Assembly (NCBI RefSeq): GCF_009914755.1
Contig: NC_060931.1
Strand: one strand, 5' to 3'
From: the human T2T-CHM13v2.0 reference genome, Homo sapiens
Length of the DNA stretch: 64,000 nt
Positions within the stretch are counted from its first letter, which is position 1. Each line of letters starts with the position of its first letter. The position numbers and the translations under genes are program-made. A model generated the notes under the pieces. It ran no database searches and was not told where the DNA came from. It saw only the letters and a program-made list of their open reading frames with translations. Shown here one piece after another: positions 1,769 to 20,150 of this stretch.

Positions 1769-2548
1769 TTAACTATGGCATAATGTATTTGCTAATTCAA
1801 AAGGTTGCAGAGCCAGTAACCCCAGTGTTATCTGCAGACCATCTGAGGTGCTTTTAAGCATTTTCTTGAATTCTATTGTTTGCTTTGAAAACATGGGCTT
1901 TAAACGGTCAAGGAAAATGCGTTTTGTCTCCTCACTCAGGAGCACTTCGGGATACATGTGCAGCGTTGCAGACAGGATGGAGTGCAGGCAAGCGGGTTCC
2001 AACTCAGAGCCCAGACCCTTGGGAAAAGCACTTGGTGGGTCATCCTGAAAACTTCCCATTTCCGGCAGTTTTTGATGGCGTGGCAGTCGTGACACCCGAG
2101 GCTCTCCTTTGGGGCACTGTCCTCTGTGGCCGTCAGTGGCCCTGGGCCCTCCTCCCAGCCAGTCTCGCTGCCCCAGAGCTTCAACACCACTGCAGGACAC
2201 CCGAGCAAAACACTCTGTTGGAGCAGGGAACAAACCCACGGCTGTGCTCGGAGTGGCTGCTGAGGCTGGATTTCTTCTTACTGATTCTCTCACATATGGA
2301 AGCACTGGGCCGCCACTGTGAAGCCAGAGGCCAGCCCCGCTCGGATCCTTTCTCATTTCCAGTGATAATGCCTCACTTTGTGAATTTCCATCAACCACAG
2401 GCTTATTCATCCAGGAGGGTGCATCTGCAGGCCAAGGGCCCTCCGGCATTCTTTTCTTAAGGCTGCATGATAGTTTGTCCGAGTCACCTCCTCCGGCCTG
2501 CTGCACTTGTGCCAGGCAGGTGCCGAGGGGCCCTCTTCTGTCCCTCAT
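1769..2548 (-). CDS. FAM220A: FAM220A (SIPAR/C7orf70), 259 aa, intronless CDS within exon 2
   Basis: ORF MRDRRGPLGTCLAQVQ...ANTLCHS* recognised as FAM220A. ATG at 2548 in agcATGa context (-3 A). The ORF track start at 2584 is an upstream GTG. Confidence 0.93.
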   Translation of the reverse strand: MRDRRGPLGTCLAQVQQAGGGDSDKLSCSLKKRMPEGPWPADAPSWMNKPVVDGNSQSEALSLEMRKDPSGAGLWLHSGGPVLPYVRESVRRNPASAATPSTAVGLFPAPTECFARVSCSGVEALGQRDWLGGGPRATDGHRGQCPKGEPRVSRLPRHQKLPEMGSFQDDPPSAFPKGLGSELEPACLHSILSATLHMYPEVLLSEETKRIFLDRLKPMFSKQTIEFKKMLKSTSDGLQITLGLLALQPFELANTLCHS

Positions 2549-2608
2549 GCTTCGTGTTCTTGGATGCGGTGGGCCTGAGGTCACGCCTTCGTCAGTCTGG
2601 GAGGGCCT

Positions 2609-2629
2609 TCAATGGATCTCAATATGAAC
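2609..2629 (-). CDS. SMIM10L3: SMIM10L3 coding exon 2 (VHIEIH*), at the start of the shared exon 2
   Basis: Acceptor ccctttcctag|GTTCATATTGAGATCCATTGA (AG at 2631-2630). A phase-0 join to exon 1 gives ...LNVRLQ-VHIEIH*, the SMIM10-family C-terminus. Confidence 0.85.
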   Translation of the reverse strand, partial: VHIEIH

Positions 2630-17800: not shown

Positions 17801-19964
17801 GCTGGAGTGCAGTGGCACAATCTCGGCTCACTGCAACGTCTGCCTCCCAGGCTCAAGCGATCCTCCCACCTCAGCCCCACAAGCAGCTGGGACTACAGGT
17901 GCACGCCACCACTGCCCGGCCACCACGCCCAGCTAATTTTTTGTATTTTAGTAGAGACAGGGTTTCACCCTGTAGCCCAGGGTGGTCTCAAACTCCTGAG
18001 CTTAAGCGACGCAGACACCTTGGCCTCCCAAAGTGTTGGGATTACTTACAGGAGTGAGCTACTGTGCCCAGCCATCTTAACTCAATTTGGATCAACAGCC
18101 GGTGTTAGGTTTCATGTTAATTACCATCACCTGTGTCAGGCACCAGCCACCTGAAGACCTGCTACTGGGACAATCATACTTTGATATGGCCAAACCGACG
18201 TTAGAAAGGGACGGCACCTGCAGTGTGGTGGTTCTACTGCTCAGACTGGTTCATTCTGCACGCCAGGGAGCAACCCAAGGACCGTCCAACTGTAAACTCC
18301 CCAAAGGAGGGTCCCTCCTTCAGCACAGAGGTATGCAAATGGAATGCAAGAGGGGCTCAGGACTTGGCCAGCTTTCTTTGAGAAAGAATTCTCGAGTTGA
18401 CAACCTTTCCTTCCACTAGAAAAAGTCATCTGAGGCTGGGCTCACTGGGTTCTGACTGTAATCCTAGTGCTTTGGGAGGGCAAGGCAGGAGGATCACTTG
18501 AGGCCAGAAGTTCAAGACCAGCCTTGGCAACATGGGAAGACCCTGTCTCTACCAAAAAGGAAAATATAAAAGAAAGAAAAAGGCAACTGGAATTCAAGGG
18601 ATGTAGAAATATCAGTCTCTTGGCTGGGCGCTGTGGCTGACGCCTATAATCCCAGCACTTTGGGAGGTCGAGGCGGGCAGATCACTTGAAGTCAGGATTT
18701 TGAGACCAGCCTGGCCAACATGGTGAAAACCCAACTCTACTTAAAAATACAAAAATTAGCCTGGCGTGGTGGCGGGCACCTGTAGTCCCAGCTACTCAGG
18801 AGGCTGAGTCAGGAGAATCGCTTGAACTCGGGAGGCAGAGGTTGCAGTGAGCTGAGATGGCGCCACCGCACTCCAGCTTGGGCAAGAGTAAGACTCTGTC
18901 TCAGGGAAAAAAAAAAAAGAGATACCAATTTTTTACAGCAAAGGCGGTCTCCAGGGTGCTGGGGTGTGAGCATACTCTAAGATCAGCTGAATGGTTCCAG
19001 GCCTCTGAGACGTTTTGTGCTTCCACGTCTTCCACTTTATTTTCCCTGGTCTTCACCCTCACAACTCAGTTCCACCTCTGGCCAAAATACGGTACATTTA
19101 TCAAAACGCTGTTAACTTCCAATCCATTTTTAGCTTCAAGGATAACATAAAACGTCTATGCAGGCCAGATGTGGTGGCTCATGCCTATAATCCCAGCACT
19201 GGGAGGCCAAGATGGGAGGATCTCTTGAGGCCAGGAGTTCGAGACCAGCCTGGGCAACATAACGAGACCCCTTTATTATTATTATTATTATTATTATTAT
19301 TATTATTATTATTATTATTGAGATGGAGTTTCCCTCTTGCTGCCCAGGCTGGAGCGCAATGGAGCGATCTCGGCTCACCGCAACCTGCGCCTCCCAGGTT
19401 CCAGCGATTCTGCCGCCTCAGCCTCCCGAGTAGCTGGGATTACAGGCACGCGCCACCACGCCCGGCTAATTCTGTATTTTTAGTAGAGACGGGGTTTCTC
19501 CGTGTTGGTCAGGCTGGTCTCGAACTCCTGACCTCAGGTAATCCGCCCGCCTCAGCCTCCCAAAGTGCATTACAGGAGTAAGCCACCGCGCCCGGCCGAG
19601 ACCCGTCTTTACAATTAAAAATAAGGGGGGGGGTTGCAAAGTTTGGGAACTAGAAAATTCACCCAACATTTAATAAAGGTCCTCTTCAACACCTTTCCAG
19701 CCCATGCAGTCTCGGACCCCACCTCCCGAGCTGCGGGACCTTCCCCAAGGCAAGTCGCTTAACCTGACCCCCAGTGCCGCGTTTGCAGAACGGGGATAAG
19801 GACCACCTCAGTGGATCTCCCCAAAGTAGGGTCGCACGGGAAAATGCACGGTGCTTGACATACACTCAGCTTCTAGGCAGTGGCAGCTGCCGTGGCGTCT
19901 GCATCCCGCGGGCGAGGCGGGCGCTCGGGGAGGGCCGGGGGCCGGGCAGGCACGGCTCACCCAC

Positions 19965-20150
19965 CTGCAGGCGGACGTTGAGCATCATGGAAGCCACGAT
20001 GTAGAGGTAGGGGAAGTTGATACGCAGCCGCCAGGCCAGGTCGAAGAAGATGAGCAGCGTGCGAGTCAGCCCCTTGCAGAAGACCCCATAGGAGCGGGCG
20101 GCGGCCGAGCGCGAGAGCCGGACAGCCAGGCCCGACAGAGCCGCCGCCAT
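19965..20150 (-). CDS. SMIM10L3: SMIM10L3 (SAGSIN1) coding exon 1, 62 codons of a 68-aa SMIM10-family microprotein
   Basis: [62 protein letters not shown] carries the SMIM10 signature SYGVFCKGL...[13 protein letters not shown]. Donor CAG|gtgggt at 19965/19964. Confidence 0.88.

What the first reader, a model, noticed from the sequence alone, without database searches (positions are those of the whole stretch)
1769..20150. Bicistronic mRNA: a spliced 68-aa SMIM10-family microprotein occupies the '5'UTR' of FAM220A
Seen: the only intron (19964-2630, ~17.3 kb) splits a complete ORF. Exon 1 supplies 62 codons and exon 2 supplies VHIEIH*. The intronless FAM220A CDS starts 60 nt after that stop. 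The ORF track misses the real protein because it reads through the donor. The first ATG has weak -3 context (tatATGG). Three more ATGs precede FAM220A: out-of-frame 20089, and in-frame M55/M56. FAM220A must therefore be made by leaky scanning or reinitiation. Established: the sequence is a SMIM10-family member (annotated as SMIM10L3/SAGSIN1, as I recall). Inference: the microprotein is the ancestral main product, and FAM220A is a younger ORF recruited from its 3'UTR. This intron-containing copy may be the parent of the largely intronless SMIM10 paralogues.
Basis: partly seen in the sequence, partly recalled or inferred. Interest (0 to 1): 0.8.

Follow-up and report, generated by a model that had tools for sequence, protein, structure and literature searches.

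The report
Known SMIM10L3–FAM220A two-protein mRNA
One spliced human mRNA carries a near-invariant 68-residue microprotein ORF ahead of the fast-evolving FAM220A ORF; this is already annotated and published, and FAM220A looks like a shortened old gene, not a new ORF born in a 3'UTR.

Summary
The two-ORF arrangement is already known. RefSeq annotates both genes on the same two exons. An HGNC paper (PMC12807706) calls SMIM10L3 a gene nested in the FAM220A 5'UTR and credits Ueda et al. 2009 (SAGSIN1/ACPIN1). New here: two chr9 processed copies of the whole spliced mRNA confirm the splice from genomic DNA. The exon-1 peptide is 100% identical in 22 named placentals, and VHIEIH ends the protein in frogs, salamanders and snakes. 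FAM220A is weakly constrained: 89% identity to macaque, 46-49% to Afrotheria. The claim that FAM220A is a younger ORF recruited from the 3'UTR is not supported. A profile search finds FAM220 domains outside the placental clade, six of ten checked fused to ankyrin repeats. Placental FAM220A therefore looks like a truncated, fast-evolving descendant of an older gene. The idea that SMIM10L3 is the parent of the paralogues is supported. All four human paralogues are contiguous across its exon junction. The tree agrees but is not decisive. How FAM220A is translated remains inference.

The parts
19965..20359 (-). Exon 1 (209-nt GC-rich 5'UTR plus the first 62 codons of SMIM10L3)
   Evidence: and the hub annotation. 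The chr9 processed copies begin at mRNA position 23, about window 20337.
19965..20150 (-). SMIM10L3 coding part 1, 62 codons, DUF4560
   Evidence: It is 100% identical in 26 database clusters, 22 of them named placental mammals.
20066..20089 (-). Out-of-frame ATG with a 7-codon ORF (MGSSARG, then stop)
19983..19988 (-). In-frame ATG ATG (M55, M56). Initiation here gives 14- or 13-codon ORFs that end at the same TGA.
2630..19964 (-). The only intron (17,335 nt), GT...AG
   Evidence: It is absent from the chr9 processed copies.
2609..2629 (-). SMIM10L3 coding part 2: VHIEIH plus TGA
   Evidence: The same C-terminus occurs in 2 frogs, 2 salamanders and 2 snakes.
2549..2608 (-). 60-nt spacer between the ORFs. 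It has no ATG and no in-frame stop, and both ORFs share one frame.
1769..2548 (-). FAM220A (SIPAR/ACPIN1) ORF, 259 codons, start context cgaagcATGa
   Evidence: It is the sole FAM220 locus in this genome apart from two chr9 processed copies.
805..1768 (-). 3'UTR with AATAAA starting at 824, close to the transcript end. The base after the TAA stop starts a GT (TAAG|GTACAAG).
   Evidence: The processed copies end about 3 nt before the annotated transcript end, followed by a short A run.

Best explanation
This is the already described bicistronic SMIM10L3/FAM220A gene. One promoter and one splice (19965 to 2629) yield a 2.2-kb mRNA. Its first AUG opens a 68-codon ORF for a DUF4560/SMIM10-family microprotein. 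That protein is under very strong purifying selection across tetrapods. Sixty nucleotides after its stop, in the same last exon, lies the FAM220A ORF. FAM220A is not a newborn ORF. It corresponds to the N-terminal FAM220 domain of an older, longer FAM220-plus-ankyrin protein. That protein lost its ankyrin part on the placental stem, and the remainder has evolved fast since then (inference from unnamed sequences). FAM220A is most likely reached in two ways. Some ribosomes scan past the weak first AUG (-3 T). Others reinitiate after the short ORFs that start at 20089, 19988 or 19985. Because both stop codons lie downstream of the only exon junction, neither should trigger junction-dependent mRNA decay (inference from established rules). 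The X-linked and chr12 SMIM10 paralogues most likely descend from a retrocopy of the spliced SMIM10L3 message.
For: Structure. Family assignments. Prior description: PMC12807706, passages and reference list read. Splice and co-residence of both ORFs on one mature RNA: two chr9 copies align to the spliced mRNA from position 23 to 2217/2215 at about 91% identity. They share flanks, carry a 15-nt direct repeat at both ends of one copy, and have a short A run. Constraint on the microprotein: 26 clusters are 100% identical over 62 aa, marsupials 97%, birds 90-92%, amphibians 82-87%. VHIEIH is kept in amphibians and snakes. 24 of 62 columns are invariant across 25 family members. Since the retrocopy split, the parent has 0 amino-acid changes in the microprotein ORF, against 8 and 11 in the two copies. 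Weak constraint on FAM220A: 89% identity to macaque, 65% to mouse lemur, 46-49% to Afrotheria. 10 of 259 columns are invariant in 14 placentals. The parent lineage has 6 replacements against 12 and 14 on the copies, using a macaque outgroup. Older origin of FAM220: the profile search gave 86 hits. All 10 of 10 long or distant hits tested pass the PF15487 cut-off (E 1e-50 to 4e-120), and 6 of 10 also carry ankyrin repeats. In the tree all 15 named placentals plus 6 unnamed short forms make one clade (SH-aLRT 100, stem 0.51). The other 19 rows form a ladder outside it. Paralogues: their coding DNA is contiguous across the parent's junction. In the tree they attach next to placental SMIM10L3.
Against: Translation of either ORF was not tested, and the 2009 paper that reports both proteins is not held. 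The library behind one search has no organism names. That the long FAM220-ankyrin proteins come from non-placental vertebrates is therefore inferred only from the tree. Two word-indexed searches found named placentals only. An AU test does not reject an origin of the paralogues outside amniotes (lnL difference 2.74, p 0.365). Four upstream AUGs are many for simple leaky scanning, and reinitiation after a 68-codon ORF is generally inefficient (established knowledge). The chr9 copy used as a neutral yardstick keeps an open FAM220 frame, so it may not be strictly neutral.
Confidence: 0.72

Rival explanations
1. One reading: the microprotein gene is ancestral, and FAM220A arose later as a new ORF within its 3'UTR.
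For: The named FAM220A homologues are all placental: all 30 of the 52 rows that carry an organism name, and likewise. FAM220A evolves fast. The microprotein is tetrapod-wide.
Against: A full HMMER profile search finds FAM220 domains in 19 tree rows outside the placental clade. They match the Pfam model from position 1 to 271, and several carry ankyrin repeats. A de novo placental ORF should have no such relatives.
Confidence: 0.05
2. In placentals FAM220A is a decaying relic ORF that is hardly translated. The mRNA would then be in effect monocistronic for SMIM10L3.
For: Protein divergence is near neutral (89% to macaque). The ankyrin part is lost and the placental stem is long. Four AUGs lie upstream.
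Against: The ORF is intact in 30 named placental rows, which include Afrotheria, Laurasiatheria and Euarchontoglires. The parent changes about half as fast as its processed copies. A review reports SIPAR binding STAT3 and promoting its dephosphorylation via TC45 (PMC6032216, passages). The title of Ueda 2009 reports an acrosomal protein from this ORF (the paper itself was not read).
Confidence: 0.12
3. FAM220A is mainly made from other transcripts that lack the upstream ORF, such as an internal promoter or alternative first exons. On this view the shared mRNA is not the working template for FAM220A.
For: Gene models in other species join exon 1 to many alternative second exons, with different tails directly after Q62 (P0003, P0005, P0029, P0040, P0041, P0043, P0049). 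The locus is therefore spliced in several ways.
Against: RefSeq lists one transcript for each gene with identical exons (hub annotation). The retrocopied germline mRNA was the full bicistronic form. The title of Ueda 2009 speaks of two ORFs on one mRNA.
Confidence: 0.15

Closest known systems
SMIM10L3 (SAGSIN1) / FAM220A (ACPIN1, SIPAR) as annotated in RefSeq and described by HGNC 2026 and Ueda et al. 2009
   Same: It is the same locus with the same exons and the same two coding regions (hub annotation).
   Different: There is no structural difference. Three points added here were not found in the searched library: the genomic proof of the splice, the rate contrast, and the older FAM220-ankyrin relatives.
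Other human genes with a conserved protein encoded in the 5'UTR of a second protein gene, such as MLDHR in PTEN (named beside SMIM10L3 in PMC12807706) and MIEF1 with its upstream microprotein (recalled)
   Same: A conserved small ORF lies upstream of, and does not overlap, a longer annotated ORF on one mature mRNA.
   Different: Here the upstream ORF is spliced, is much better conserved than the downstream one, and has four paralogous stand-alone genes. It is also in frame with the downstream ORF, separated only by one TGA and 20 sense codons.
SMIM10, SMIM10L1, SMIM10L2A and SMIM10L2B (DUF4560 paralogues)
   Same: They share the same domain, with 69-92% identity over 61 residues, and a C-terminus that begins VHI/VRIE/VYI, like the spliced VHIEIH.
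   Different: Their coding DNA has no intron at the Q62 position and no FAM220 ORF behind it.
FAM220 proteins with C-terminal ankyrin repeats (unnamed database proteins P0185, P0219, P0223, P0230, P0244, P0246)
   Same: The FAM220 domain is matched over the whole Pfam model, including the N-terminus.
   Different: Human and all 15 named placental proteins in the tree stop where the long forms continue into a linker and ankyrin repeats. Motifs that are well kept in the long forms have decayed in placentals.

Membership tests
SMIM10 family / Pfam DUF4560 (PF15118) | Match to the family profile above the curated cut-off | tested here: met
   130 bits against a cut-off of 27, E 3e-38, profile positions 1-61 of 64.
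SMIM10 family / Pfam DUF4560 (PF15118) | Shares the family's invariant residues with named members | tested here: met
   24 invariant columns across 25 members that include SMIM10, SMIM10L2A/B and SAGSIN1 rows.
SMIM10 family / Pfam DUF4560 (PF15118) | Integral membrane protein, as the name says | tested here: inconclusive
   The best 19-residue Kyte-Doolittle mean is 1.20, and charged residues lie inside the hydrophobic stretch. The AlphaFold model is helical but weak: mean pLDDT 60.7, pTM 0.30.
FAM220 (PF15487) | Match to the family profile above the cut-off | tested here: met
   292 bits, E 6e-87, profile positions 1-271.
Bicistronic eukaryotic mRNA | Both complete ORFs lie on one mature spliced transcript | tested here: met
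   The processed copies on chr9 hold the junction, the spacer and the FAM220 ORF in one piece. RefSeq uses identical exons for both genes.
Bicistronic eukaryotic mRNA | Both ORFs are translated into protein | not testable with these tools
   The only support is the title of Ueda 2009 and its HGNC summary. The paper is not held.
   19 tree rows lie outside the placental clade, and 10 of 10 tested pass PF15487. Their organisms are not named.
Retrogenes (reading of the SMIM10 paralogues) | The parental intron is absent and the sequence matches the spliced form across the junction | tested here: met
   blastn of the spliced mRNA reaches 397, 412 and 413 past the junction at 395. The translations read LQVRIE*, LQVYI* and LQVHI*.
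Retrogenes (reading of the SMIM10 paralogues) | Nested within the parent's lineage in a tree | tested here: inconclusive
   The split that puts the paralogues with placental SMIM10L3 has support 92/77. The AU test does not reject placement outside amniotes, p 0.365.
Retrogenes (reading of the SMIM10 paralogues) | Poly(A) remnant and target-site duplication | not tested
   No similarity beyond the coding part is left. The flanks were not examined.
Processed pseudogenes (the chr9 copies) | Intronless full-length copy ending at the poly(A) site, with an A run and flanking direct repeats | tested here: met
   The copies cover mRNA 23-2217. A 15-nt repeat lies at both ends of the 109.29-Mb copy. 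The shared 3' flank shows one insertion that was later duplicated.

The most novel reading that the evidence does not exclude
The gene may record a reversal of roles. An ancient FAM220-ankyrin gene already lay behind, or became joined to, an ancient microprotein gene. On the placental stem it lost its ankyrin exons by ending at the old first-exon donor: the human stop reads TAAG|GT, just where the long forms go on. It then drifted almost neutrally, while the 'upstream ORF' stayed frozen. That upstream ORF also seeded the SMIM10 family on chrX and chr12 through a retrocopy of the spliced message. On this reading the annotated 'main' protein FAM220A is the minor, relaxed cistron, and the microprotein is the product that selection sees.
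Probability: 0.45. Interest if true: 0.45.

Novelty: already known. Interest (0 to 1): 0.22.

Why it matters
The locus is a clean, curated case of a vertebrate mRNA with two protein products. It is unusual in that the upstream, spliced microprotein is much more conserved than the named downstream gene. That matters for variant interpretation, because changes in the 'FAM220A 5'UTR' hit a near-invariant protein. It also matters for knock-out design, because deleting exon 1 removes both products. The contrast between a frozen microprotein and a relaxed, truncated old gene is a modest evolutionary point worth a proper comparative study. The core finding itself adds nothing to current annotation.

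Tried and rejected
Literature. Ueda 2009 (PMID 19659802) is not held, so its data were not seen. The following searches found nothing on translation or evolution of this locus beyond the HGNC paper:
- 'FAM220A' with 'uORF' gave 0 papers.
- 'FAM220A' with 'ORF' gave 4 papers, none relevant apart from the HGNC paper.
- 'Acpin1' gave 5 papers, 4 of them on plant PIN genes.
- 'SAGSIN1' gave 2 papers.
- 'FAM220A' with 'zebrafish' gave 4 irrelevant papers.
- SMIM10 names with retrogene terms gave one gene-list paper, not read.
- SMIM10 family names gave 150 papers, mostly expression lists. PMC12679747 concerns SMIM10L2B-AS1, not this family.
- One search was badly posed: FAM220A was not required, so it returned general microprotein papers.
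Supplements were not opened, and Ribo-seq ORF catalogues may list this ORF there.

Sequence searches. The two word-indexed searches with FAM220A suggested a placental-only family. The exhaustive profile search overturned that. Both ESM Atlas calls were useless: one returned generic ankyrin clusters, the other no usable hit. They were tried partly to learn taxa, which the tool text advises against. PF15487 in the 14 control genomes gave 0 matches. No trace of ankyrin exons near FAM220A turned up in the human genome. Rfam found no family in window 1-21000.

Other. The structure model of the microprotein is too weak to use. Whether fish have SMIM10L3 was not settled, because only 120 of the 194 hits were listed.
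Full report
**1.

Everything lies on the minus strand.
- An ATG at 20150 (ctctatATGg) opens 62 codons that end at CAG|GT (19965|19964).
- The acceptor cctag|G at 2630|2629 is followed by GTT CAT ATT GAG ATC CAT TGA, which reads VHIEIH and stop.
- The FAM220A ATG at 2548 lies 60 nt after that stop and opens 259 codons that end at 1769.
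- A script over the spliced message found no ATG in the 209-nt leader, which is 77% G+C.
The one at 20089 is in another frame and opens a 7-codon ORF ending at 20066. Those at 19988 and 19985 are in frame as codons 55 and 56.
- Unspliced, the frame runs to 94 aa, which explains why a plain ORF list misses the real product.
- Pfam assigns the exon-1 peptide to DUF4560 (PF15118, E 3e-38) and the second ORF to FAM220 (PF15487, E 6e-87).

**2. It is already known**

The hub's RefSeq table gives SMIM10L3 and FAM220A the same two exons. [quoted passage not shown] It says the gene was first reported in mouse and human as SAGSIN1 by Ueda et al. 2009. [quoted passage not shown] The HGNC paper also names the four human paralogues. 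The 2009 paper is not held, so its experiments were not seen. A review (PMC6032216; passages) reports that SIPAR binds STAT3 and speeds its dephosphorylation through TC45. The link between SIPAR and FAM220A rests on database names such as 'SIPAR domain-containing protein'.

**3. Genomic proof of the splice**

The window's own genome holds two processed copies on chr9, near 38.55 Mb and 109.29 Mb.
- They align to the spliced mRNA from position 23 to 2217/2215 at about 91% identity, straight across the junction.
- Their translation reads ...LQVHIEIH*, then the spacer, then the FAM220 start.
- The copies share their 3' flank.
- One carries the same 15-nt stretch at both ends and a short A run.
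- The other carries a 285-nt Alu-like insertion.

So one retroposition of the full bicistronic message was later duplicated.

**4. Constraint differs sharply between the two ORFs**

The 62-residue exon-1 peptide found 194 database clusters, of which 120 were listed.

| Group | Identity to the human exon-1 peptide |
|---|---|
| 26 clusters (22 named placentals, 4 unnamed) | 100% |
| Marsupials | 97% |
| Birds | 90-92% |
| Salamanders and frogs | 82-87% |

Of the 23 sequences fetched, 2 frogs, 2 salamanders and 2 snakes end in exactly ...NVRLQVHIEIH. Gene models of placentals, marsupials and birds diverge directly after Q62, so the exon boundary is old.

FAM220A is far less conserved.

| Species or group | Identity to human FAM220A |
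|---|---|
| Macaque | 89% |
| Mouse lemur | 65% |
| Squirrel | 58% |
| Manatee and elephant | 46-49% |

Only 10 of 259 columns are invariant among 14 placentals.

The chr9 copies serve as an internal yardstick.
- The microprotein ORF shows 8 and 11 replacement differences between the parent and the two copies, including stops and a one-base gap. All of them must lie on the copy side, because the parent equals the placental sequence.
- In FAM220A, polarising with macaque and Rhinopithecus gives 6 changes on the parent lineage. There are 8 changes shared by the copies, plus 4 and 6 private ones; 6 sites are unresolved.
- With New World monkeys as outgroup the counts are 7 against 5 plus 4 and 5 plus 5.

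FAM220A thus changes at roughly half to three quarters of the copies' rate. One copy keeps an open frame, so the yardstick may not be strictly neutral.

**5. FAM220A is not a newborn ORF**

Two word-indexed searches returned named placentals only. One search gave 44 hits. One search gave 52 hits, of which 30 carry names, all placental.

The exhaustive profile search over 1.84 billion representatives gave a different picture. It returned 86 hits, 34 of them at E 1e-30 or better, with a tail of proteins up to 526 aa, and one of 755 aa that I did not read, matched over the domain. I read 20 of them and ran Pfam on 10.
- All 10 pass the PF15487 cut-off, with E from 8e-50 to 4e-120. Six of the 10 match from profile position 1.
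- 6 of 10 also carry ankyrin repeats at the C-terminus.

A tree of 40 rows was built with the quick method.
- All 15 named placentals plus 6 unnamed short forms fall in one clade (SH-aLRT 100).
- Inside that clade, Afrotheria, Laurasiatheria and Euarchontoglires separate as expected.
- The clade sits on a long stem of 0.51.
- The other 19 rows lie outside in a ladder: P0185 and P0201 nearest, then three rows, then P0219, P0223 and others, then a well-supported group of ten.

That library has no organism names, so their being non-placental vertebrates is an inference from this shape. NCBI calls a marsupial (Dromiciops) gene model that encodes the microprotein 'FAM220A isoform X4'.

The human genome has no other FAM220 locus and no ankyrin remnant nearby. 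Placental proteins stop at ...L(C/Y/R)HS, where the long forms continue ...LWHAVVKFY... into a linker and the repeats. In the human DNA the stop is followed at once by GT. I read this as truncation at the old first coding exon, but it is unproven.

**6. Origin of the paralogues**

The genome search found three chrX loci and one chr12 locus, plus broken fragments on chr9 and chr12. Two of the chrX loci are 92% identical to the query and one is 77%. The chr12 locus is 69% identical.
- In all four intact loci the coding DNA is contiguous where SMIM10L3 has its intron. They end LQVRIE* (twice), LQVYI* and LQVHI*.
- blastn with the spliced mRNA runs past the junction at 395 to positions 397, 412 and 413.
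- In a 42-row tree the paralogues form one clade (100/99) that attaches beside placental SMIM10L3. The split that leaves marsupial, sauropsid and amphibian rows on the other side has support 92/77.
- The stretch [15 protein letters not shown] is identical in placental SMIM10L3 and SMIM10L2 rows but differs in marsupials and birds.

With 63 columns the AU test cannot reject an origin outside amniotes (p 0.365). A single retrocopy of the spliced parent followed by DNA duplications is therefore the best reading, not a shown one. I found no statement of it in the searched library.

**7. How FAM220A could be translated (inference)**

- The first AUG has T at -3 and G at +4.
- The 20089 AUG opens a 7-codon ORF, from which ribosomes can resume scanning.
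- The 19988 and 19985 AUGs give 14- and 13-codon ORFs that stop 60 nt before the FAM220A AUG, which has A at -3.

Leaky scanning past the first AUG, with reinitiation after these short ORFs, fits established rules better than reinitiation after the full 68 codons. Other transcripts cannot be excluded. Both stops lie after the only junction, so junction-dependent decay is not expected. No Rfam family lies in 1-21000.

**8. The microprotein itself**

Its function is unknown.
- The first 25 residues hold 3 arginines, no acidic residue and 14 A, L or S. This resembles a mitochondrial presequence, which is my reading and was not tested.
- The best 19-residue hydropathy mean is only 1.20.
- The AlphaFold model shows two helices broken at P47 but is of low confidence (pLDDT 60.7).

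**9. Verdict**

- The central claim is already annotated and published.
- One inference is supported: SMIM10L3 as parent of the paralogues.
- One is half right: the microprotein is the constrained product.
- One is contradicted: FAM220A as a young ORF from the 3'UTR.

Noticed in passing
window 2549-2611 (-): The microprotein ORF and FAM220A share one reading frame, and the 60-nt spacer has no stop. A single TGA (context CAT TGA AGG) is all that separates them, so read-through would give one fused protein. Chance alone gives this arrangement in roughly one case in eight (my estimate).
   Followed up: partly
P0158 (Nannospalax galili model): This 376-aa predicted 'FAM220A' joins the microprotein's exon 1, an extra exon, the spacer and the FAM220 domain in one frame. 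An Ile stands where the other species have the FAM220A start Met. It may be a natural fusion or a prediction artefact.
   Followed up: no
G000 chr9:38551297-38552055 (L010/L027) and chr9:109293430-109294204 (L011/L028): In both processed copies the microprotein ORF is broken: a shared stop at codon 13, a one-base gap, and one further stop in one copy. The FAM220 frame of the 38.55-Mb copy stays open (291-aa open frame). Database rows call it 'putative protein FAM220BP' in gorilla and orangutan.
   Followed up: partly
G000 chr9 copies, 5' ends: Both copies begin at mRNA position 23. The germline start site of the retrocopied message was therefore about window 20337, not 20359.
   Followed up: no
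G000 chr12:54883903-54884025: A further SMIM10-like fragment (60% identity over residues 4-43, one TGA) was not examined.
   Followed up: no
P0082 (Ovis canadensis) and P0065 (Mus spicilegus): These models, named SMIM10L3 or SMIM10L2A, have a VHTEIH or VHIEIH tail but many substitutions or a one-residue deletion. They look like models built on processed copies of the spliced message in those species.
   Followed up: no
window 1766-1775 (-): The FAM220A stop TAA is followed directly by GTACAAG. Unnamed short FAM220 forms (P0224, P0253) diverge from the long forms at the matching place. This may be the relic of the donor site of an ancestral first coding exon.
   Followed up: partly
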